DNA of 64,000 nucleotides from Oscillospiraceae bacterium (GTDB lineage: Bacteria; Bacillota; Clostridia; Oscillospirales; CAG-272). Location: positions 47,229 through 111,228 of the forward strand of contig SVSB01000002.1 of assembly GCA_015064505.1 (NCBI GenBank), read 5' to 3'. A program made the translations under genes and the position numbers. Shown here piece after piece: positions 4,679 through 37,511 of the stretch; position 1 is the first letter of the stretch; each line of letters opens with the position of its first letter. The notes under the pieces are model-generated. The model was not told where the DNA came from, searched no databases, and saw nothing but the letters and a program-made list of their open reading frames with translations.

Positions 4679-6412
4679 ATGAACATTCCAAGACCCGAAC
4701 ATCCCAATCCCATGAGCGTGCGCGAGCGCTGGGAAAACCTTAACGGTCAGTGGGACTTTACCGTTGACTGGTCCAAGAGCGGCAGAGCAAGAGATCTGAA
4801 GCTTGGTAACGAGGGCTACGATAAGAAGATCACCGTTCCCTTCTGCCCCGAAAGCGAGCTTTCCGGCGTTGGCATCAAGGACTTTATGCCCGCGGTATGG
4901 TACGCAAAAAAGATAGAGATCAGTGCAACCGATCTTACGGGCAGGGTACTGCTCAACATCGGTGCTTGCGATTGGTTCTGCGAGGTGTTCGTAAACGGTG
5001 AAAGCTGCGGCACCCACAAGGGCGGCTACAGCTCCTTCCGCTTTGATATAACCGCAAAACTCAAGGAAGGCGAGAATACCCTCGTTATCCTTGCAGAGGA
5101 CGATACGAGAAGCGGTCTTCAGGCAACGGGCAAGCAGAGCACCTGGTATGCAAGCCACGGTTGCTTCTACACCCGCACCACCGGTCTCTGGCAGACCGTA
5201 TGGCTTGAGTTTGTTCCCCGCGACTACATAAAAGGCTTCTACGTTACCGCTGATATTGAAAACAGCATTGCCGTAATAAACGGAACCACTGCAGGCTGCG
5301 GAAAGGTAAGCGCAGTTGCAACCTACGAGGGCAAAGAGGTTGGCTCTGCCACCGCATACTCCTGCGGAAGCTTTTCCATCACGCTTCCACTCTCCGAGCT
5401 TCATCTCTGGGAGATCGGCTGTGGCAGACTTTACGACCTGAAGCTGACCTTTAACGACGATACCGTAAAGAGCTACTTCGGTATGCGCACCGTTGGCTTT
5501 GACGGCATGAAGTTTCTTCTTAACGGCAAGTCCGTATTCCAGCGCCTTGTGCTTGACCAGGGCTTCTATCCCGACGGAATCTACACCGCACCCACCGAGG
5601 AGGCTCTTATCAAGGATATTCAGATATCCCTTGACTGCGGCTTCAACGGTGCCCGCCTCCACGAGAAGGCGTTTGAGCCCCTCTTCCTCTACCATGCAGA
5701 CAAGATGGGCTATATGGTTTGGGGCGAATACGGCAACTGGAGTCTTGACCACTCCAATCCCGCAGTTACCGATCTTATCGTGCCCGAATGGCTGGAGCTT
5801 GTAGAGCGCGACCGCAATCACCCCGCCCTTATCGGCTGGTGCCCCTTCAACGAGACCTGGGACTACGATTGCAAGCGCCAGAGAAATTCCCTTCTTGCAA
5901 CCGTATACAAGGTGACCAAGGCCGTTGACCCCACCCGCCCCTGCATTGATACCAGTGGTAACTTCCACGTTATCACCGATATTTTCGACGTACATAACTA
6001 CGAGCAGGATCCCAAGGTATTCAAGGAGACCTATCTGCCCCTTGAAAGCGAGGGTATTCTTAACGACCGCCACAGCAAGCGCCAGACCTACCGCGGAGAG
6101 CCCGTATTTATGAGCGAGTACGGCGGAATCGGACTTGCTGAGGGTTGCCCCGACGAGTACGTTGAAAGTGCATCCAAGCTTACCACCTGGAGCTACGGCA
6201 AGGCGGCTACCTGCATTGCCGAGTACGTTGACCGCTATCGCGCACTTACCGACGCAATGCTTGATAACTCCGCCATCCACGGCTTCTGCTATACTCAGCT
6301 CTATGACGTTGAGCAGGAGCAGAACGGTATTTATACCTACAGCAGAGAGCCCAAGCTTGACGTAAGCATCATTAAGGAAATTAACTGCCGCAAGGCAGCC
6401 ATTGAGGACTGA
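4679..6412 (+). CDS. Glycoside hydrolase family 2 (beta-galactosidase / beta-glucuronidase-like), cytoplasmic, 577 aa
   Basis: RBS aaaggagact. N-terminal RPEHPNPMSVRERWENLNGQWDF matches the GH2 sugar-binding-domain signature. FNETW region (acid/base Glu) and SEYGGIG (nucleophile Glu region). No signal peptide. Confidence 0.7.
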   Translation: MNIPRPEHPNPMSVRERWENLNGQWDFTVDWSKSGRARDLKLGNEGYDKKITVPFCPESELSGVGIKDFMPAVWYAKKIEISATDLTGRVLLNIGACDWFCEVFVNGESCGTHKGGYSSFRFDITAKLKEGENTLVILAEDDTRSGLQATGKQSTWYASHGCFYTRTTGLWQTVWLEFVPRDYIKGFYVTADIENSIAVINGTTAGCGKVSAVATYEGKEVGSATAYSCGSFSITLPLSELHLWEIGCGRLYDLKLTFNDDTVKSYFGMRTVGFDGMKFLLNGKSVFQRLVLDQGFYPDGIYTAPTEEALIKDIQISLDCGFNGARLHEKAFEPLFLYHADKMGYMVWGEYGNWSLDHSNPAVTDLIVPEWLELVERDRNHPALIGWCPFNETWDYDCKRQRNSLLATVYKVTKAVDPTRPCIDTSGNFHVITDIFDVHNYEQDPKVFKETYLPLESEGILNDRHSKRQTYRGEPVFMSEYGGIGLAEGCPDEYVESASKLTTWSYGKAATCIAEYVDRYRALTDAMLDNSAIHGFCYTQLYDVEQEQNGIYTYSREPKLDVSIIKEINCRKAAIED

Positions 6413-31763: not shown

Positions 31764-31805
31764 AAAATATCCGCAGCACCAAACGGTACTGCGGATATTT
31801 TTATT
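31763..31805. terminator. Bidirectional hairpin terminator (atatccgcag..ctgcggatat) flanked by A-run and T-run
   Basis: Sits between the convergent 29970 gene (+) and rtcB (-). Confidence 0.8.
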
Positions 31806-33009
31806 CTGCCGCCTTGAAGTTGTAAATGGGCTTTATTATTTTGATTATTTCTGCGGTGGGCTCGATATTTTCAACGATCTCGTCCATGCTCTTATAAGCC
31901 ATGGGCGATTCGTCAAGAGTGTCGGGGACCACGCAGGTGGAGTATATACCCGCCATCTCCGCCTCGTATTCCGCCATGGTAAGCTGCTCAAATGCCTTGG
32001 AGCGGGACATAAGGCGCCCCGCACCGTGAGGCGCGGAAAAATTCCAATCCTCATTGCCCTTGCCAATGCAGATAAGGGAGCCGTCGCGCATATTGATGGG
32101 GATGAGAAGCTTCTCCCCCGCCTTTGCGGATACCGCGCCCTTGCGGACTATCATCTCGTTCACGTCCACGTAATTATGTATGGTCTGAAAGGTCTCCACC
32201 GCGGTCCACCCAAGACGCTCAAGTATGATCTCCGCCATTCTTTCGCGGTTTCTTTCCGCAAATTGCTGGCAGATATCCACGTCGTAGAGATAATCCTCCA
32301 TGAAAGAGCCGTAAAGGAAGCAAAGATCGCGGGGGAGAGTAGGCTCCTTTGCCTCCCATTCCCTTGCCATTTTCTTTAAGGTTGGCTGTATCTCCGCACG
32401 TCTTCCCTGCTCCTTATAGGTGCGGATTATCTCCTCGCGCCGCTTGAAATAATCCTCCTTGCCCATATTGAGGTCAACGGCGATCTGCTGGTAAAACTCC
32501 GCCACCTGCGTGCCGAGATTGCGCGAGCCCGAGTGGATAACGAGATACTTGCCGCCATCCCCGTCCTCGTCTATCTCAATAAAGTGGTTGCCGCCGCCGA
32601 GGGTGCCGAGGGATCGCTCAAGACGTCTGGTGTCCCTCAGATATCTGTAGCAGCGAAGGCGCGTAAGATCAAAGCGCTCCGTTCTGCCCTCCCAGACGTT
32701 TCTGCCGCAGGGGATGAAATGTGCCGCCTCGTCCACCTTTTCAAAGTCTATATCTATATTACCGAGGTACACGGTGTACATTCCGCAACCGATATCAACT
32801 CCCACCATGGAGGGAACCACCTTGTCGGTCACGGTCATGGTGGTGCCGATGGTGCAGCCCTTGCCCGCGTGAACGTCGGGCATTATTCTTATCTTTGAGG
32901 AGGCAAACGCCTCCGTATCGCACACCGCCTTGATCTGCTCCCGTGCACCGTCCTCAAGGGTAGACGCAAAGCATATTGCAGTGTTGAAATTTCCTGTTAT
33001 TTCTATCAT
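31801..33009 (-). CDS. rtcB: RtcB RNA 3'-phosphate / 2',3'-cyclic phosphate-5'-OH ligase (402 aa)
   Basis: Hallmark motifs DVHAGKGCTIG, GGGNHFIE, LIPINMRDGSLI, SAPHGAGR (His nucleophile). aaaggatag RBS. Confidence 0.85.
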   Translation of the reverse strand: MIEITGNFNTAICFASTLEDGAREQIKAVCDTEAFASSKIRIMPDVHAGKGCTIGTTMTVTDKVVPSMVGVDIGCGMYTVYLGNIDIDFEKVDEAAHFIPCGRNVWEGRTERFDLTRLRCYRYLRDTRRLERSLGTLGGGNHFIEIDEDGDGGKYLVIHSGSRNLGTQVAEFYQQIAVDLNMGKEDYFKRREEIIRTYKEQGRRAEIQPTLKKMAREWEAKEPTLPRDLCFLYGSFMEDYLYDVDICQQFAERNRERMAEIILERLGWTAVETFQTIHNYVDVNEMIVRKGAVSAKAGEKLLIPINMRDGSLICIGKGNEDWNFSAPHGAGRLMSRSKAFEQLTMAEYEAEMAGIYSTCVVPDTLDESPMAYKSMDEIVENIEPTAEIIKIIKPIYNFKAAE

Positions 33010-33014
33010 AATAT

Positions 33015-34133
33015 CTATCCTTTCATAGCGCCGACCGTTTCTCCGTTCAATATCGCCGTAAGCTGAGAGAGCATATTTCCGTTGCCGTTAAGTGAAATAT
33101 TGCCAACGTTCTCACAAATGCGCTCAACGTACTCAAGCTCCTTTAATTTATAAAGGGTCTTGTTTTCGTCCATCAGCTTTGCCGTGTTTAAAAGCGAACG
33201 GGTGGAGGCGACCTCCTCGCGGCGGGTAATTACGTTTGCCTGTGCGCGCTTTTCTGCCACCAGCACCGTGTTCATTATCTCGCGGATCTCACCGGGGAGA
33301 ATAATATCCTTAACGCCCGCATCCCTGAATTCAACGAAGAGCTCCGTTTCCTTTGCCTTCAGCCTTTCAAAAACGAATTCCGACATTTCCGCCTTTTTCT
33401 CAAGTATCTCGTCAAGCTTGTATTGCCCCACGTAATCGCGCAGAGCAAGCTGTGCGGCAACGTGGATCTGCTCCTCAAAATCGTCTACCTCCGTTATCAT
33501 TTTGACGATATCGGCAACGCGGTAGTTGCAAACGAAATTGATGCGGAGCGATACCTTATCTGCGGTAAGCATCTCCTGCCCCGTGATCTTCAGCTGTGTA
33601 AGACGTGTATCAACGTAATGCACGCCGACAGCGGTGGAAGTATTCCAAAAATAGTACGTTCCTGCATCCAAAACCCGAACAAGCTTATTGCCGAAGTACA
33701 GCAAAGCCTTCTGGAACTCCGCAACCTCTATCCTGGTATACAGGGTATTGGGTATTTTTTGGAATATATACTCGGGAACGGACCCATCCACCGTAGGCTC
33801 GGAGATATCCACCGTTTTGAATTCGTGGCGATCCGTGACAGCCCAGAAGGCGTGCTTGCCCTCGGTGAGCACGGAGGAAAATCTGCCGTTTACGTAGTGG
33901 AGGGCAAGCTCCTCGTCGCCAACCTCAACAACGGCCACCTTATCCGCAACCTCTTTATCCGCGAGCAGGGTTTCAAGGGAGCATTTCTTGCAGGATATGG
34001 GTTGACCGAGCTCCGAGAGCTCAACCGAATCCGATCCGAACAGCATATACCTTCCCGCGCCAAGCGTCTTTATGTACTTTCCGTTTTTAAAGAGAAATCC
34101 CCTCATATTTTCGTTTATGATTATCTTTTTCAT
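33015..34133 (-). CDS. Cytoplasmic SPFH / band-7 (stomatin-prohibitin-like) domain protein (372 aa from ATG 34133)
   Basis: Stomatin-like blocks LRDYVGQYKLDEILEKKAEMSEFV and EIREIMNTVLVAEKRAQANVI. No TM helix. 5-nt gap to rtcB. Confidence 0.6.
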   Translation of the reverse strand: MKKIIINENMRGFLFKNGKYIKTLGAGRYMLFGSDSVELSELGQPISCKKCSLETLLADKEVADKVAVVEVGDEELALHYVNGRFSSVLTEGKHAFWAVTDRHEFKTVDISEPTVDGSVPEYIFQKIPNTLYTRIEVAEFQKALLYFGNKLVRVLDAGTYYFWNTSTAVGVHYVDTRLTQLKITGQEMLTADKVSLRINFVCNYRVADIVKMITEVDDFEEQIHVAAQLALRDYVGQYKLDEILEKKAEMSEFVFERLKAKETELFVEFRDAGVKDIILPGEIREIMNTVLVAEKRAQANVITRREEVASTRSLLNTAKLMDENKTLYKLKELEYVERICENVGNISLNGNGNMLSQLTAILNGETVGAMKG

Positions 34134-34148
34134 AATATGCATCCTTTC

Positions 34149-34769
34149 TTATCTTTCTATCCGTTTTTGTCCTGTTTTACCGTAACCGAAGCAATCGCGG
34201 TAAAGCTTTTTGCCCACGTAATCTTTGTATTTGTAGCAATCGTATCTGCAGTTTTCGTTCCAATAGCTTATCATACGTGCGTGGGCAAGCTTAATATAAT
34301 CAAAATTAAGCTCACAAAGCTCCTTATATTCTTCACAGCCTCTATCCGAAAGCCTTTGATATACCGACTCAAGTATTTCCGTTACGTATTCGTCGCAGAC
34401 CTTTACCACGTACGGAAGAGCCCCGTCAAAAAGCTCTGAATCAAGAAGTGCTTCAATATGCTTTTGGCGTACGTATCCGTCGTAGCTTCTTGAAAAAATG
34501 CACCGATATACGGCTCTTTGACGCGGGGTAAGCTTGTTTCCTTGATCTTCCTCTTCCCTTACGTAAATTCGGTAAGGAATATCCACCGTCTCCCCCGTGG
34601 GCAAGCGCCATTTGGTGCTTGCCTCGCTGTACAGCGAACCGTCGTACGCCTCGCTTTTTATCTTCAAAGTATCGCAAACGGCTTCAACGTCCGCCGAATA
34701 TTCAGACGGAAACGCCTTCAAAAGCCGCGAAACGAAACGTTTTCTTTTTGTTCTGAAAAACAACAGCAT
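34149..34769 (-). CDS. Hypothetical protein (207 aa from ATG 34769), first gene of the rtcB operon; Cys-rich C-terminus
   Basis: GGGGAGGAAG RBS 6 nt before ATG (MLLFFRTKRKRF…). 6-nt gap to the SPFH gene. No recognisable motif. Confidence 0.5.
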   Translation of the reverse strand: MLLFFRTKRKRFVSRLLKAFPSEYSADVEAVCDTLKIKSEAYDGSLYSEASTKWRLPTGETVDIPYRIYVREEEDQGNKLTPRQRAVYRCIFSRSYDGYVRQKHIEALLDSELFDGALPYVVKVCDEYVTEILESVYQRLSDRGCEEYKELCELNFDYIKLAHARMISYWNENCRYDCYKYKDYVGKKLYRDCFGYGKTGQKRIER

Positions 34770-35036
34770 CTTAACTTCCTCCCCAAAGCTTACTTTACAG
34801 CGCCGAGTGCAAAAGCGGCGGCTGAAGGCTTGAGCGCCTCCGTTACGAAGCGGAAAGAATTCTTTTGGCTCCGTTCGGGATAACGCGGTATCCGTCCTCA
34901 GGCATGGCGCGCTTTTGCATTGCATGGATATCCGTGGTCTGCTTTTATCCTTGCTGATCGACTGCTGCCGCTCGGTTCCCACAAGCGACTGTAAACTTCA
35001 AATAGTTTTTTAATAAATAATCCTATCCACAGGCGA

Positions 35037-35082
35037 TACGTTTTTAACGCACGGCGGGATTCGAACCCGCGAAAAAGAGCTT
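35037..35082 (-). other. 3' half of a tRNA-Asn(GUU)-like sequence with no 5' half; candidate integration-site (att) scar or tRNA-mimic element
   Basis: Minus-strand RNA GGAGCCUGUUAAGCUCU UUUUC GCGGGUUCGAAUCCCGC CGUGCGU. That is a 5-bp anticodon stem with a 7-nt loop CU-GUU-AA, a 5-nt variable loop, a T-arm with TUCGAAU, and a 7-nt acceptor 3' strand. No D-arm or complementary 5' acceptor strand upstream. Confidence 0.55.
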
Positions 35083-35204
35083 AACAGGCTCCCGCAAGCC
35101 TTTTTGGGCATACACCTTGGAATATCCTCGTGCACCGCGGTGAAAACTATCCAAACACCGCAACCGGCCTTGCAAGCATATTTTACCATCGGTATACTCC
35201 CGCT

Positions 35205-35250
35205 TTCACGGAAAAAAAGCTGCGAACTCTCATCTGAGTCCGCAGCTTTT
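35205..35250. terminator. Hairpin (agctgcgaactc..gagtccgcagct) with T-runs on both sides, at the 3' end of the WYL gene pair
   Basis: Overlaps the stop codon at 35230-35232. Followed on the minus strand by TTTTTTTCC. Confidence 0.7.
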
Positions 35251-36141
35251 CTGTTTTTTCAGCTTTTCTTTTACCAATTCACGGAACTGCATAGGCTCCG
35301 TTACCTCCGCAAGAGGGCCGAAGGACAGTATCCTTATAAGCATTTCCGTTTCGTCGTCACGCACGTATTTTATCCTTACAGAATAGGTATTCTTCACCGT
35401 TTTCTCCGCCTGCTTCTCAAAATGGGCAAAATGGAGCATAAAGCGCTCAAGGGCGTTGCGCTCGTCCGTTATCTTCACGGTAACGGTATCGTATACTTTT
35501 TCCCGCTCCTCCCCTTCAAGCATTCTTTCGCCCGAATAACGCACGCAGGAGCGTATCTTTGCAAGATTGACCGTTGAAACGGATCTCCAGCCTGCAGTTA
35601 CCAGCCTGAACTTATCGTCCTTTACCGAATACTCAAGTCTTACGGGGTGGCAACGTATAAACATAGTCTTGCCGTTTCGGCTTGTCATCTCAAATCTTAT
35701 CTGATCGCCGTTGCGTATTGCGCGCAGTATAACGCGGAATTGGCGTATATATTCCTTATCCTCAAAGGGATCCCCATCGCAGTACTGATCGTAAATGCGG
35801 TAATCCTCCACGGTAAACAGAGGCTCCACACCCTCAAGCTCGGGCATTTTCACGTCAAAGAGCTTAACGCGTGGGTCCATGGCCACCGCCTTCAGCCATT
35901 GCTTCTGCAGAGTCGTCAGGGGCATATGGGGCTTATGCTCAATGGGTGTTGTCATATCCCTGCGGAGAAGCTGCCATTTTCCACCCTTAAGGGCAGGCAT
36001 TACGGAAAGCACGCTTTCCCCGAAGGCGCGCTCGCTTACTATCCTTTGCAGCTCCTTTTCCGAGCTTTCACCCTCCAGAATGCTGGATATTATGGCGGCA
36101 ACCGTGTTGTAATAGGCGGAATAAAGCTCGCTGAAGATCAT
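35230..36141 (-). CDS. WYL-WCX domain transcriptional regulator (PafC / BrxR-like), 303 aa
   Basis: WYL-like core FIRCHPVRLEYSVKDDKFRLVTAGWRS…VNLAKIRS. WCX-like C-terminus ETEMLIRILSFGPLAEVTEPMQFRELV. ATGA overlap with the upstream paralog. Confidence 0.65.
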   Translation of the reverse strand: MIFSELYSAYYNTVAAIISSILEGESSEKELQRIVSERAFGESVLSVMPALKGGKWQLLRRDMTTPIEHKPHMPLTTLQKQWLKAVAMDPRVKLFDVKMPELEGVEPLFTVEDYRIYDQYCDGDPFEDKEYIRQFRVILRAIRNGDQIRFEMTSRNGKTMFIRCHPVRLEYSVKDDKFRLVTAGWRSVSTVNLAKIRSCVRYSGERMLEGEEREKVYDTVTVKITDERNALERFMLHFAHFEKQAEKTVKNTYSVRIKYVRDDETEMLIRILSFGPLAEVTEPMQFRELVKEKLKKQKSCGLR

Positions 36142-37394
36142 TCTTCCACCTCCTCTATTCCGTACGTGCGGTACATTTCTCTCACGTCTTCCTTGAATTT
36201 GTTCTCCACCGTGCGGTTTGAAAAATTCATTTGCGTTATACGGCAGATAAAGGTCCTTATCCAGGGCACCATCTCGCTTGAATCGTAAACGTCGGCGGTA
36301 AAGCGGTAATTATGCTCGTCGATCCGTTCCACCTTTCCAACGCGCTTTTCTCGCTGAAGCCGCTTGACGATATAATCCTCCCCGTCCTCCACCCTTACGG
36401 TAAACTCCACGTGCTCCATATGCTCGGCACCCAGCTTGTTGCGCTTGATGCTGACGCCCCACATCTTTTTTTGCATTCTGTCAAGCTCTGCGCGAAGCTC
36501 GTCAAATCGGGGAGTAACGTCCTCAAGCTTTATATTGGAAAGATAATCCACGCGGTAGGACTGAAAATGATTATAATCGGGCAAGTACGCAAGCAGGTGC
36601 TGCCTGCCGTTTTGCGCGCTTATAAAAACGCGCAGGGGTACTATGCGGTTGCGGCGGGGCAGATCTCTGCGGCGGCTGAGATTGGAAACGGTGCACACGC
36701 GCTTTTCCCTCATTGCCGTGAAAAGCGAGGCAAGCACGCCGCTGTCAAGGGTTCCCGTTATGTAATGATGCTTAAAGGAGAAGGGCTCGTTTTTCACTTC
36801 AAACTTATCAAGGAGAAAAGAGCCGATAACACCGCAGGGCGCAACCTCCGAATAATAATGAAGCACCTCGTCGATACCCGAAATATCGGGACTTTCCGTT
36901 CTGTGATAATATACCTTTTTTCCCTCTTTTACGCGGTCGATAACGCCGATATCACAGTATTCCTTCAGTTTTTTGCGCACGGTGGACTCGTCGAACTCCA
37001 TGGGTTCTTCAAATCCGCACAGATACTTTCCGTCTATAAGCTCTATTATCTCCGTGAGCGTGTACCTGTCCTCAACGGAATGGAGTATATCAAAAAGGAT
37101 GAAGTGCAGAGTTATATCCCCATCGGTAAAGCTTTTTGCCTTCCACGCCTTAAAGAAGGGGTTATGCCTTATGGAGCGGCTGTCTATGGAGATAAAAACG
37201 TTTTTACCCTCCCGGGTACGCACGAAGCTCATATGATCCCCAAGCCAGCTTTCTATGCGGCGGCGCTCGTCGTCGTAAGAGCGGGAGCTTTTGGTTTGAT
37301 ATTCGCCGCGGTTCTTAAAGCCGTATACGTAAAACTCACGCATATACGCACGGGTCTTTTCAAAGCTTTTTATAAGCTCGCTGTATGACGACAT
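36138..37394 (-). CDS. WYL-WCX domain transcriptional regulator (PafB / BrxR-like), 419 aa from ATG 37394
   Basis: WYL core RQHLLAYLPDYNHFQSYRVDYLSNIKL. WCX-like C-terminus SEMVPWIRTFICRITQMNF…EDVREM. GGAAGGAGAAGG RBS before MSSYSELIK. Confidence 0.65.
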   Translation of the reverse strand: MSSYSELIKSFEKTRAYMREFYVYGFKNRGEYQTKSSRSYDDERRRIESWLGDHMSFVRTREGKNVFISIDSRSIRHNPFFKAWKAKSFTDGDITLHFILFDILHSVEDRYTLTEIIELIDGKYLCGFEEPMEFDESTVRKKLKEYCDIGVIDRVKEGKKVYYHRTESPDISGIDEVLHYYSEVAPCGVIGSFLLDKFEVKNEPFSFKHHYITGTLDSGVLASLFTAMREKRVCTVSNLSRRRDLPRRNRIVPLRVFISAQNGRQHLLAYLPDYNHFQSYRVDYLSNIKLEDVTPRFDELRAELDRMQKKMWGVSIKRNKLGAEHMEHVEFTVRVEDGEDYIVKRLQREKRVGKVERIDEHNYRFTADVYDSSEMVPWIRTFICRITQMNFSNRTVENKFKEDVREMYRTYGIEEVEE

Positions 37395-37511
37395 ACCTTC
37401 TCCTTCCAAGCCCACAGGCTTTCGTTTCCTGTCTCAATATTACACTATTTACGGCTCTTTGTCAATCTTACTAATTTTTTGCGATAATGAATAACGCAAG
37501 TCAACACAAAC

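What the first reader, a model, noticed from the sequence alone, without database searches (positions are those of the whole stretch)
35037..35082. Isolated 3' half of a tRNA-Asn(GUU)-like sequence between the WYL pair and the rtcB operon
- Read on the minus strand, the sequence folds exactly as the distal half of a class-I tRNA:
  - a 5-bp anticodon stem with the loop CU-GUU-AA (U33, anticodon GUU, A37),
  - a 5-nt variable loop,
  - a canonical T-arm (GCGGG-UUCGAAU-CCCGC),
  - a 7-nt acceptor 3' strand.
- There is no D-arm or complementary 5' acceptor strand upstream, and no intact tRNA elsewhere in the intergenic regions of this window.
- Such partial tRNA 3' halves are the classic footprint (attR/attL duplication) of integrase-mediated insertion into a tRNA gene. 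If so, one of the two flanking modules (WYL pair or rtcB operon) is on horizontally acquired DNA.
- Alternative: given that RtcR-type regulators sense tRNA fragments, a tRNA-mimic RNA (Y-RNA-like) next to rtcB would also be interesting.
Basis: seen in the sequence. Interest (0 to 1): 0.6.

Follow-up and report, generated by a model that had tools for sequence, protein, structure and literature searches.

The report
Rearranged tRNA look-alike beside RNA-repair genes
The "half tRNA" is the middle of a complete tRNA-shaped fold whose arms are encoded in rotated order, inside a conserved ~400-base structured RNA. That RNA is transcribed ahead of an RNA-repair operon and occurs only where the operon also encodes a Band-7 protein, so it is a working RNA and not a scar of DNA insertion.

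Summary
The "missing" acceptor 5' strand and D arm lie immediately downstream. The order is anticodon-like hairpin, variable loop, T arm, acceptor stem closed by a loop, D arm (35093..35022). Rotating the sequence at the acceptor loop makes ARAGORN call a 70-nt tRNA-Asn(GUU); in native order it calls nothing.

The element sits in a ~400-nt leader (about 35173..34770) between a promoter next to the WYL genes and a DUF-Band-7-RtcB operon. 25 loci from other Clostridia carry the same RNA at the same place, with strong covariation. A model built without the window scores it 81.9 bits (E 4e-20).

The RNA is present in 24 of 24 fully covered operons with a Band-7 gene and in 0 of 6 sister operons without one. 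Proteobacterial RtcR-Band-7-RtcB loci carry normal-order tRNA-like genes at the same position, and one shares the leader's 5' hairpin motif.

This fits the predicted, never validated "Band-7-associated tRNA" (Burroughs and Aravind 2016), here with the closed-acceptor topology of YrlA Y-RNA. The attachment-site reading is refuted. The Y-RNA-like alternative is supported. Function is inferred, most likely an RNA partner of Band-7 that presents a tRNA mimic.

The parts
35219..35246 (-). Inverted repeat GCUGCGGACU-N8-AGUUCGCAGC, followed by U7 (35218-35212) and CCGUGAAA. It is the terminator of the WYL gene pair and a candidate WYL operator. Its left arm lies in the last codons of the WYL-B gene (stop codon 35232-35230).
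   Evidence: Read. The sequence itself, not only the pairing, is conserved in all WYL-type loci, including those without the RNA. The operator role is inferred.
35180..35209 (-). Promoter of the leader and operon: GTGAAA, 18-nt spacer, TG-n-TAAAAT (extended -10). The transcript start is predicted near 35173.
   Evidence: Promoter scan. TGGTAAAAT is conserved in nearly all loci, and in RNA-less loci it sits 31-89 nt before the first gene.
34770..35173 (-). Whole structured leader RNA of about 400 nt, co-transcribed with the DUF-Band-7-RtcB operon. No terminator-like site on the minus strand between it and the ATG at 34769.
   Evidence: On a plain MAFFT alignment of 19 leaders, 76 pairs in 11 helices are 91.6% paired and 53 pairs change on both sides. 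Covariation is 0.345 against 0.169 shuffled (0 of 500); slid controls give 37-44% paired. Terminator scan.
35094..35173 (-). 5' domain closed by helix P1: GCAAG at 35173-35169 pairs with CUUGC at 35098-35094.
   Evidence: P1 covaries by eye: GUAAG/CUUAC in L015 and L016, GCAAA/UUUGC in L008. It was not counted with a tool because MAFFT splits these columns.
35107..35136 (-). Conserved 5' hairpin GGUGCAC-[GAGGAUAUUCCAAG]-GUGUAUGCC with an inner GGA-UAU-UCC hairpin. It is the signature motif of the family.
   Evidence: Helices 1 and 2 are 100% and 98% paired, with A-U/G-C swaps. The regex GGTRCRY-N10-20-RYGYATRCC hits only RNA-bearing loci and the Photobacterium Band-7 locus in 1.16 Mb.
35075..35093 (-). 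Anticodon-arm mimic with a 7-nt loop CU-GUU-AA (triplet at 35085-35083).
   Evidence: Helix 1 is 94% paired and 3 of 4 pairs change on both sides. Loop positions 32, 33, 37 and 38 never vary in the 15 distinct sequences analysed, while the triplet does.
35054..35070 (-). T arm GCGGG-UUCGAAU-CCCGC, preceded by an invariant C (35071) that could form a Levitt-type pair with the invariant first G of the D loop (35030).
   Evidence: 100% paired with 2 covarying pairs. It matches the tRNA/tmRNA T arm in Rfam. Invariant columns are listed. The Levitt pair is inferred.
35034..35053 (-). Acceptor stem closed by a loop: CGUGCGU(U)-AAA-(A)ACGUAU(C)G, 7-8 bp stacked on the T stem.
   Evidence: Helix 3 has 4 of 6 pairs changed on both sides. 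Examples are GUAUGC/GCAUAU, GCACGC/GCGUGC and AGAAUCC/GGAUUCU. MFE folding of the full leader also forms it.
35022..35033 (-). D-arm mimic CCU-GUGGAU-AGG (3-bp stem; loop with the invariant GG).
   Evidence: Helix 4: the third pair occurs as A-U, G-C, U-A and G.U. The GG is invariant.
34798..34964 (-). 3' domain: nested helices around the invariant GGAUACCG, UUUCCGC, ACUCAAG and CAGCCGC blocks. It ends about 14 nt before the ribosome-binding site GGGGAGGA (34784-34777).
   Evidence: Helices 7-11 are 87-94% paired and 34 of 47 pairs change on both sides. Coordinates were mapped.
34149..34769 (-). First operon gene: a 206-aa protein of unknown function with no Pfam or NCBIfam match.
   Evidence: AlphaFold2 model with pLDDT 88.9 and no significant PDB fold match.
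33015..34142 (-). Band-7/SPFH (slipin-type) protein of 375 aa. No hydrophobic membrane-type stretch is apparent by eye in its N-terminal half. It is the proposed protein partner of the RNA.
   Evidence: Pfam PF01145, E 1.3e-26. Sequence. Presence matches presence of the RNA exactly.
31801..33009 (-). RtcB RNA ligase.
   Evidence: Pfam PF01139, E 6.9e-57.
35230..37415 (-). Two overlapping genes for WYL/WCX-domain regulators: 37415-36138 and 36141-35230.
   Evidence: Pfam WYL E 1e-06 for the first. WCX 20.4 bits for the second, just below its cut-off. The pair is conserved upstream of the operon in relatives.

Best explanation
The sequence is the core of a circularly permuted tRNA-like domain. 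The arm order is anticodon arm, variable loop, T arm, loop-closed acceptor stem, D arm. The domain is embedded in a ~400-nt multi-helix RNA that is transcribed from the promoter next to the WYL genes as the 5' leader of the DUF-Band-7-RtcB operon.

It belongs to the Band-7-associated tRNA-like RNAs of RtcB repair operons, the 'b7a-tRNA' idea of Burroughs and Aravind. Here it has the T-arm, closed-acceptor, D-arm topology known from YrlA Y-RNAs.

Shown: the fold, its conservation, its position in the transcription unit, and its strict co-occurrence with the Band-7 gene.

Inferred: the RNA, as leader or after processing, is the RNA partner of the Band-7 protein, as Y RNA is of Ro60/Rsr. It would display an L-shaped tRNA mimic, with elbow, 12-bp acceptor/T minihelix and anticodon loop all exposed, to tRNA-recognising factors. 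Candidates are RtcB, tRNA-cleaving toxins and RNase P, so the RNA could act as scaffold, guide or competitive decoy during tRNA damage and repair. The 7-8-bp acceptor stem also makes RNase P cleavage in the acceptor loop plausible. That cut would separate the upstream RNA from the mRNA.
For: Fold and permuted order
- Helices with compensatory changes.
- A model built without the window scores it 81.9 bits.
- After rotation at the acceptor loop, ARAGORN calls the window element tRNA-Asn(GUU) and 5 of the 23 orthologues tRNAs. In native order it of 24.

Leader status
- The same TGnTAAAAT promoter precedes the RNA, and in RNA-less relatives it precedes the first gene directly.
- No minus-strand terminator lies between the RNA and the ATG.

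Link to Band-7
- The RNA is present in 24 of 24 operons with a Band-7 gene (counting only loci that cover both regions) and absent from 6 of 6 WYL-DUF-RtcB operons without one. Fisher exact p is about 2e-6, not corrected for phylogeny.
- The RNA and the Band-7 gene are separated by the DUF gene, so joint absence needs two deletions.
- L020 keeps a remnant of the 5' hairpin (by eye).

Family link
- Burkholderia and Photobacterium loci read RtcR | sigma-54-like promoter (seen by eye in Photobacterium) | RNA | Band-7 | RtcB. They carry tRNA-like genes just upstream of Band-7: ARAGORN 'tRNA-???' and Rfam tRNA at 54 and 46 bits.
- Photobacterium shares the 5' hairpin motif.
- In the E. coli slipin locus, upstream of the slipin gene, the model finds a T arm followed by a closed 7-bp hairpin.

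Literature
- b7a-tRNA was predicted next to Band-7 and RtcB and had not been validated (bioRxiv 10.1101/312249).
- YrlA has T, closed acceptor and D stem-loops. The M. smegmatis YrlA with a 7-bp acceptor stem is cut by RNase P and receives CCA (PMC4201824).
- The YrlA tRNA-like domain was proposed as a competitive inhibitor of an anticodon nuclease (PMC7790460).
Against: - There is no expression, processing or binding data. The Band-7 partnership rests on co-occurrence only, and the loci are phylogenetically related.
- The RNA lies upstream of the DUF gene, not directly before Band-7 as in Proteobacteria.
- Three orthologues (L004, L022, L023) lack the anticodon-like hairpin, so that arm cannot be essential everywhere.
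- The Burroughs and Aravind paper and its alignment could not be read. Membership in their family is argued from context and from my own Proteobacterial comparison.
- Rfam YrlA scores only 17.2 bits against a threshold of 69.
- Single-sequence folding energies are unremarkable.
Confidence: 0.6

Rival explanations
1. Cis-acting sensor or bait in the leader. A tRNA-targeting nuclease, such as an anticodon nuclease, cuts the anticodon-like loop. RtcB reseals the cut. Leader integrity, or the cyclic-phosphate fragment released, tunes expression of the operon.
For: - The RNA is in the 5' leader.
- The anticodon-loop shape is conserved (C32, U33, A37, A38 never vary) while the triplet varies.
- RtcB joins exactly the ends that such nucleases leave, and related operons are induced by cleaved tRNAs (PMC7790460).
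Against: - The WYL regulators, operator and promoter are intact in the six operons that lack the RNA, so regulation does not require it.
- The RNA tracks Band-7, not the regulator.
- L004, L022 and L023 have no anticodon-like hairpin.
- The triplet is less variable than other loops, so there is no sign of an arms race.
Confidence: 0.2
2. Processing signal. The tRNA-shaped domain mainly recruits RNase P, and possibly 3' trimming and CCA addition, to cut the leader at the acceptor loop. That would release a stable upstream RNA and give the mRNA a defined 5' end.
For: - The acceptor stem is 7-8 bp and stacked on a canonical T arm.
- M. smegmatis YrlA with a 7-bp stem is cut by RNase P and receives CCA.
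Against: - A bare processing signal would not need about 300 nt of additional conserved helices, an anticodon arm, or linkage to Band-7.
- This reading is compatible with the main explanation rather than exclusive of it.
Confidence: 0.1
3. A genuine permuted pre-tRNA. Flanks are removed, RtcB joins the D-arm 3' end to the anticodon-stem 5' end, and RNase P with CCA addition opens the acceptor loop to give a usable tRNA, as in the permuted tRNA genes of the red alga Cyanidioschyzon.
For: - The un-permuted sequence passes ARAGORN as tRNA-Asn(GUU).
- An RtcB ligase is encoded in the same operon.
Against: - Only 6 of 24 un-permuted sequences pass.
- The D stem has only 3 bp, and the 8-9 linker is reduced to one base or absent in some.
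- Anticodon identity changes between orthologues with near-identical acceptor stems.
- Three orthologues lack the anticodon arm.
- No known bacterial endonuclease would make the required cuts (my knowledge).
Confidence: 0.04
4. One reading: a duplicated 3' half of tRNA-Asn left by integrase-mediated insertion (attL/attR), marking an island boundary.
For: The anticodon arm, T arm and acceptor 3' strand in tRNA order look like a tRNA 3' half when read alone.
Against: - The element is conserved with covariation at the same operon position in 25 loci.
- The partner strand and D arm lie downstream.
- The triplet varies between orthologues.
- No integrase among the 10 flanking ORFs examined, no repeat in the window, flat GC.
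Confidence: 0.02

Closest known systems
[quoted passage not shown] Known to me through Wang et al., bioRxiv 10.1101/312249, and my recollection of the abstract.
   Same: - A non-coding tRNA-like RNA encoded next to a Band-7/SPFH protein and RtcB, and here strictly co-occurring with Band-7.
- Proteobacterial RtcR-Band-7-RtcB loci that I examined have tRNA-like genes at the equivalent position. One shares the 5' hairpin motif GGUGCGC-N14-GCGUAUACC and a CUUCAAGCCUUCA block with the window's leader (the second block by eye).
   Different: - The Proteobacterial examples are in normal tRNA order and are found by tRNA finders. The window's version is rotated: the acceptor is closed by a loop, the chain ends lie at the D/anticodon junction, and ARAGORN and Rfam do not see it.
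- It sits in a ~400-nt leader.
- It is controlled by a WYL pair instead of RtcR and sigma-54.
- An extra 206-aa gene lies between the RNA and Band-7.
- I could not check whether the 2016 study already included such forms.
YrlA Y RNA-like (Rfam RF02553; Chen et al. 2014, PMC4201824)
   Same: - A tRNA-like module encoded as T stem-loop, closed acceptor stem-loop, D stem-loop, with an optional stem-loop 5' of T.
- Encoded in RtcB repair operons.
- The T loop and the D-loop GG are conserved.
   Different: - No Ro60/Rsr (TROVE) gene among the 10 ORFs examined by Pfam around the locus, and no recognisable Ro-binding helix.
- The 5' and 3' flanks do not pair to replace the anticodon stem. Instead there is a local anticodon-like hairpin with a 7-nt loop.
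- Rfam score is 17.2 bits against a gathering score of 69, with no hits in other loci.
Circularly permuted tRNA genes (Cyanidioschyzon merolae) and permuted two-piece tmRNA genes (my knowledge, not tested)
   Same: The 3' part (anticodon arm, T arm, acceptor 3' strand) is encoded upstream of the 5' part (acceptor 5' strand, D arm). Rotation restores a cloverleaf.
   Different: - No evidence of circularisation or of a mature tRNA, and no encoded CCA.
- The break lies at the D/anticodon junction with large structured flanks.
- ARAGORN finds no tmRNA in the window.
tRNA-gene attachment sites of integrative elements
   Same: Superficially a partial tRNA 3' end in an intergenic region.
   Different: It is conserved, it covaries, it is operon-linked, and it lacks integrase, a repeat partner and a composition change.

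Membership tests
tRNA-derived attachment-site remnant | Sequence identical to the 3' end of an intact tRNA gene elsewhere in the same genome (direct repeat) | not testable with these tools
   Only the 64-kb window is available. Within it there is no second copy and no tRNA.
tRNA-derived attachment-site remnant | Adjacent integrase or mobile-element genes and a compositional boundary | tested here: not met
   Pfam on 10 flanking ORFs shows WYL, Band-7, RtcB, BNR and ABC-transporter domains and no integrase. GC is 0.46-0.55 with no step.
tRNA-derived attachment-site remnant | A neutral relic: no selection on structure, and variable presence unrelated to neighbouring gene function | tested here: not met
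   92% of cells paired and 11 of 18 pairs changed on both sides. Presence tracks the Band-7 gene exactly.
Genuine tRNA gene | Cloverleaf in 5'-acceptor, D, anticodon, T, 3'-acceptor order, detected by tRNA finders | tested here: not met
   ARAGORN 0 and Rfam tRNA below threshold in native order. It is called tRNA-Asn only after in-silico rotation.
Genuine tRNA gene | Free acceptor end able to carry CCA | tested here: not met
   The acceptor strands are joined by a 3-7-nt A-rich loop, and no CCA is encoded. Processing by RNase P is not testable here.
YrlA (Rfam RF02553) | Score at or above the family gathering threshold | tested here: not met
   17.2 bits against 69. No YrlA hit in five other loci.
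YrlA (Rfam RF02553) | T stem-loop, closed acceptor stem-loop and D stem-loop in that order | tested here: met
   Definition from PMC4201824.
YrlA (Rfam RF02553) | Ro60-binding helix and a neighbouring rsr (TROVE) gene | tested here: not met
   No TROVE protein among the 10 ORFs examined by Pfam. The flanks form P1 with the 5' end and a separate 3' domain, not a Ro-type stem.
Band-7-associated tRNA-like RNA (b7a-tRNA) | Encoded beside a Band-7/SPFH gene in an RtcB operon | tested here: met
   Co-occurrence is 24 of 24 against 0 of 6.
Band-7-associated tRNA-like RNA (b7a-tRNA) | tRNA-like secondary structure with a canonical T arm and D-loop GG | tested here: met
Band-7-associated tRNA-like RNA (b7a-tRNA) | Sequence homology to the originally described members | tested here: inconclusive
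Against Proteobacterial Band-7 loci I fetched myself, the 5' hairpin motif is shared with Photobacterium. The tRNA-like module aligns only through the T arm: 14-20 bits for Burkholderia and Photobacterium, 14-17 bits full-length in E. coli.
Permuted tRNA gene (Cyanidioschyzon type) | 3' half encoded upstream of 5' half | tested here: met
Permuted tRNA gene (Cyanidioschyzon type) | Circular intermediate and a mature aminoacylatable tRNA | not testable with these tools
   This needs RNA-seq or northern data. Arguments against are given in the rival explanations.

The most novel reading that the evidence does not exclude
The operon encodes its own rotated pre-tRNA. After the flanks are removed, RtcB joins the D-arm end to the anticodon-stem end, and RNase P with CCA addition opens the acceptor loop. 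The product would be a functional or decoy tRNA made only when the repair operon is on. This would be the first permuted tRNA gene in bacteria and a physiological substrate for bacterial RtcB.
Probability: 0.04. Interest if true: 0.95.

Novelty: new variant of a known kind. Interest (0 to 1): 0.6.

Why it matters
Bacterial RtcB operons are widespread, but their physiological substrates and the roles of their companion RNAs (Y RNAs, b7a-tRNA) remain open. The b7a-tRNA had not been shown to exist as of the 2018 preprint I could read.

This locus gives a well-defined example supported by covariation:
- a ~400-nt RNA absent from Rfam;
- a complete tRNA mimic in rotated order;
- a clean presence/absence link to the Band-7 protein;
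- a different sensor module (a WYL pair) in place of RtcR.

It offers concrete constructs and cultured carriers, such as Subdoligranulum variabile, and a related unannotated element upstream of the slipin gene in about 30% of complete E. coli genomes. With these one could test whether tRNA mimics act as scaffolds, decoys or substrates in RNA repair.

It also warns annotators that a 'tRNA fragment' next to repair genes need not be an integration scar.

Tried and rejected
- **Rfam.** Gathering threshold on the window gave nothing. E-value scans gave only T-arm hits to the tmRNA/tRNA clan and a 17-bit YrlA alignment.
- **ARAGORN on the native sequence.** Nothing.
- **Folding-energy z-scores.** Not significant.
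- **Repeat of the element in the window.** None.
- **Viral contigs.** A pattern for T arm plus acceptor found 0. The phage collection has no homologue of this Band-7 protein.
- **T-box-like pairing.** A test for a cis 'codon' complementary to the variable triplet found no covarying site, best 5 of 16.
- **'Hypervariable anticodon' idea.** The triplet varies while its neighbours never do, but other loops are more variable, so I dropped the arms-race claim.
- **The 206-aa protein.** The AlphaFold model is confident, but there is no significant PDB fold match and no Pfam or NCBIfam hit, so it gives no mechanistic clue.
- **Distant homologues of the 206-aa protein.** Those below 46% identity are not linked to WYL, Band-7 or RtcB at tblastn E 1e-6. 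They lack the RNA; the only hits there are weak ones (E about 0.01-0.3) at or opposite other features.
- **Band-7 homologue search.** It returned only close relatives and did not widen the sample.
- **The Burroughs and Aravind 2016 paper.** Not held in the library.
- **An alternative partner for the 5' GCAAGG** (CCUUGC in the 3' domain). Rejected because L004, L001 and L008 mismatch there but fit the site just 5' of the anticodon hairpin.
Full report
**What is at the coordinates**

Read on the minus strand, the region contains, in this order:
- an anticodon-like hairpin, GGGAGC-CUGUUAA-GCUCUU (35093-35075);
- four to five unpaired bases;
- a canonical T arm, GCGGG-UUCGAAU-CCCGC (35070-35054);
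- CGUGCGU (35053-35047).

ARAGORN finds no tRNA in the 64-kb window. Rfam finds nothing at gathering thresholds.

The bases after a short A-rich loop, ACGUAU(C)G at 35041-35034, pair back onto the 'acceptor 3' strand'. They are followed by CCU-GUGGAU-AGG (35033-35022), a D arm with the characteristic GG. All four arms of a tRNA are therefore present, but the order is anticodon arm, T arm, acceptor (closed by a loop), D arm. It is a circular permutation.

I tested this directly. Rotating the sequence at the acceptor loop makes ARAGORN, at default settings, call a 70-nt tRNA-Asn(GUU) with a 7-bp acceptor stem. The same operation turns 5 of the 23 orthologues into tRNA calls. In native order 0 of 24 are called.

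**Is it more than chance?**

The 206-aa protein encoded downstream has about 134 homologues with no known domain. I used an alignment of them to fetch 159 loci from genomes and metagenomes.

In every locus of the closest clade that covers the region and has a Band-7 gene, the T-arm motif lies about 250-350 nt upstream of that gene, as in the window. These loci are Clostridia and Oscillospiraceae assemblies whose DUF protein is 46-64% identical.

A covariance model of the four helices finds the window and 24 loci at 48-96 bits. One more, in Subdoligranulum variabile, was fetched later. In the distant loci it finds only weak hits: T arms and 3' halves of real tRNAs, plus two hits of 17-18 bits on the opposite strand in L125 and L127.

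On the model-based alignment:
- 92.3% of cells are paired;
- 11 of 18 pairs show changes on both sides;
- the covariation score is 0.359 against 0.173 in shuffles (0 of 500);
- sliding the partners by 1-3 columns drops pairing to 27-50%.

Each of the four helices has compensatory changes. The closed acceptor stem, for example, appears as GUGCG/CGUAU, GUAUGC/GCAUAU, GCACGC/GCGUGC and AGAAUCC/GGAUUCU.

A second model built without the window still scores it 81.9 bits, E 4e-20, with no non-standard pair. Thermodynamic z-scores are not significant, as is common for tRNA-like folds.

**The larger object**

The tRNA-like domain is part of a much larger conserved RNA. The parts upstream of and within it are:
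- The WYL gene pair ends in a conserved inverted repeat plus U-run (35246-35212).
- A promoter follows: GTGAAA, 18 nt, TG-n-TAAAAT.
- From about 35173 to the ribosome-binding site at 34784, 19 aligned leaders share a multi-domain architecture.
- A 5' domain is closed by helix P1. It contains a signature hairpin, GGUGCAC...GUGUAUGCC.
- The tRNA-like domain comes next.
- One or two variable hairpins follow. The window has lost the UUCG hairpin that most relatives have.
- A large 3' domain built around the invariant blocks GGAUACCG, UUUCCGC, ACUCAAG and CAGCCGC closes the leader.

RNAalifold predicts 62 pairs, 41 of them with compensatory changes. With two further long-range helices added, the plain MAFFT alignment gives:
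- 76 pairs in 11 helices;
- 91.6% paired;
- 53 pairs with changes on both sides;
- slid controls at 37-44% paired.

No Rfam family matches any part of this RNA in the window or in five other loci. No terminator-like site lies between the RNA and the first gene on the minus strand. In relatives that lack the RNA, the same promoter sits 31-89 nt before the gene. The RNA is therefore made as the operon's 5' leader. Whether it is then cut out is unknown.

**What it goes with**

tblastn of the window's five proteins against all loci shows the operon WYL-WYL | RNA | DUF | Band-7 | RtcB. It also shows a sister form, WYL-WYL | DUF | (small ORF) | RtcB.

- The RNA is present in all 24 operons that have the Band-7 gene, counting only loci that cover both regions.
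- It is absent from all six operons without Band-7 (L010, L011, L012, L018, L019, L020).
- Fisher's exact p is about 2e-6. The loci are not phylogenetically independent. By DUF identity, however, the two forms interleave.
- The RNA and the Band-7 gene are separated by the DUF gene, so joint absence needs two deletions.
- By eye, L020 retains a miniaturised 5' hairpin as a scar.

Regulators, operator and promoter are intact in the RNA-less operons. The RNA is therefore a partner of Band-7, not a requirement of the WYL switch.

**Relation to what is known**

Wang et al. [quoted passage not shown] It lies next to RtcB and a Band-7 protein, 'strongly resembles an authentic tRNA', and was unvalidated. 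I could not read the 2016 paper, so I looked for such loci myself.

*Proteobacterial loci.* Band-7 homologues of 33-35% identity in Burkholderia cenocepacia and Photobacterium sp. lie in RtcR | RNA | Band-7 | RtcB operons; a sigma-54-type promoter is visible by eye in the Photobacterium locus. Just upstream of Band-7:
- ARAGORN finds odd tRNAs in normal order. In Burkholderia it is a 'tRNA-???' whose anticodon stem is capped by GAAA. In Photobacterium there are two in tandem.
- The two Photobacterium elements pass Rfam's tRNA threshold at 54.1 and 46.4 bits.
- The Photobacterium leader also carries the Firmicute 5' hairpin motif (GGUGCGC-N14-GCGUAUACC). The regex for this motif hits nothing else in 1.16 Mb except RNA-bearing loci.
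- By eye, it also has a CUUCAAGCCUUCA block like the window's CUCAAGCCUUCAGCC.

*E. coli.* A slipin-nucleotidyltransferase island in 1632 of 5426 complete genomes has an unannotated upstream region. There the model finds a T arm followed by a closed 7-bp hairpin.

The window's RNA is therefore best placed in this Band-7-associated family, as a variant in which the cloverleaf is rotated.

*YrlA.* The rotated order T arm, closed acceptor, D arm is the one described for YrlA Y RNAs (PMC4201824). The window's element nevertheless fails YrlA membership:
- 17.2 bits against a threshold of 69;
- no Rsr among the 10 ORFs examined by Pfam;
- no Ro-binding stem;
- its own anticodon-like hairpin.

**How it probably works**

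Shown:
- a conserved L-shape-compatible tRNA mimic, with a 12-bp acceptor/T stack, a canonical T loop, a D-loop GG, and an invariant C before the T stem and G opening the D loop that could form a Levitt-type pair;
- a 7-nt anticodon-like loop whose positions 32, 33, 37 and 38 never vary in the 15 distinct sequences analysed, while the triplet changes (GUU, GUC, UUC, UAC, UUU, GAC);
- co-transcription with, and dependence on, a Band-7-RtcB module.

Inferred:
- By analogy with Ro60-Y RNA in rsr-yrlA-rtcB operons, the RNA is the ligand of the Band-7 protein. No hydrophobic membrane-type stretch is apparent by eye in that protein's N-terminal half.
- The RNA presents a tRNA-shaped surface to RtcB, to tRNA-cleaving toxins, or to RNase P.
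- Hughes et al. suggested that YrlA's tRNA-like domain might competitively inhibit an anticodon nuclease. An RNA that also has an anticodon loop is an even better decoy or bait.
- The 7-8-bp acceptor stem meets the condition under which M. smegmatis YrlA is cut by RNase P and receives CCA. A cut in the acceptor loop that frees the upstream RNA from the mRNA is therefore plausible.

I rank the explanations as follows:
- RNP, scaffold or decoy: 0.6
- purely cis-regulatory bait: 0.2
- processing signal alone: 0.1
- true permuted pre-tRNA matured by RtcB: 0.04
- integration scar: 0.02

**Against the attachment-site reading**

- Synteny is conserved and the structure covaries.
- The partner strands lie downstream.
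- The triplet differs between orthologues.
- No integrase was found among the 10 flanking ORFs examined.
- There is no repeat in the window, and GC is flat at 0.46-0.55 across 22 kb.
- A genome-wide search for a matching tRNA-Asn could not be done.

**Verdict**

The feature is real and functional. The listed elements are there, but 'isolated half' is wrong. The main interpretation is refuted and the stated alternative is supported.

It is a new, rotated-topology, WYL-controlled variant of a predicted but unvalidated class of tRNA mimics in RNA-repair operons. It is embedded in a ~400-nt structured RNA that is not in Rfam.

Noticed in passing
window 35201-35246 (minus strand): The inverted repeat GCTGCGGACT-N8-AGTTCGCAGC plus T7 plus CCGTGAAA overlaps the last codons of the second WYL gene. 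It is conserved at the sequence level in all WYL-type loci, with or without the RNA. It probably serves both as terminator and as the WYL operator just upstream of the extended -10 box.
   Followed up: partly
window 35107-35136 compared with 35032-35054 (minus strand): The 5' hairpin GGUGCAC..GUGUAUGCC resembles the closed acceptor CCGUGCG..CGUAUCGCC, including the positions of the G.U pairs. This suggests an internal duplication or a protein-recognition helix used twice.
   Followed up: no
L160 4680-5000 and L162 5001-5321 (E. coli): 1632 of 5426 complete E. coli genomes carry a slipin (Band-7) plus nucleotidyltransferase island, with a zeta-toxin gene, between yjbD and lysC. The ~530-nt stretch upstream of the slipin gene is unannotated. 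It has a sigma-54-like promoter, a T arm (UGGG-UUCGAUU-CCCA) and a closed 7-bp hairpin. No RtcB gene is present there.
   Followed up: partly
L020 about 4910-5000: An operon without Band-7 keeps only a miniaturised 5' hairpin (GGTGCGC-GAAA-GCGTG) after the promoter. This looks like a deletion scar of the leader RNA.
   Followed up: no
L003, L089, L004, L022, L023, L161 (for example L003 4629-4700): Some orthologues have a second T-arm-like hairpin (GGGGUUCAACUCCCC) with an adjoining stem 5' of the main T arm. In L004, L022 and L023 it replaces the anticodon-like hairpin. L005, L008, L088 and L015 have an extra hairpin at the position of a class-II long variable arm. The Proteobacterial loci also have two T arms, so the rotated form may derive from a tandem pair of tRNA-like units.
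   Followed up: partly
L050 4783-4857: A normal-looking tRNA-Asn(GTT), with its own promoter and terminator, lies about 100-150 nt upstream of a distant stand-alone homologue of the 206-aa protein (Rfam tRNA 66.5 bits). This is probably coincidental, but it has the same anticodon as the window's mimic.
   Followed up: no
window 34149-34769 (minus strand): The 206-aa protein family has no Pfam or NCBIfam match. Its confident AlphaFold model (pLDDT 88.9) has no significant PDB fold match. Most homologues are stand-alone in Bacilli and Clostridia, and a few are fused to or next to DUF4275.
   Followed up: partly
P0121, P0122, P0162: Some close homologues of the Band-7 protein are about 638 aa, roughly twice the length of the window's protein. 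They may be tandem duplications or fusions.
   Followed up: no
L002 1215-1287 and L004 471-543: An identical 73-nt 'tRNA-Leu(TAA)' of class-I length lies about 2 kb upstream of the DUF gene in two loci (Rfam tRNA 41 bits in L004). This is an unusual form for a leucine tRNA. Neither locus gave a tblastn hit to the WYL proteins.
   Followed up: no
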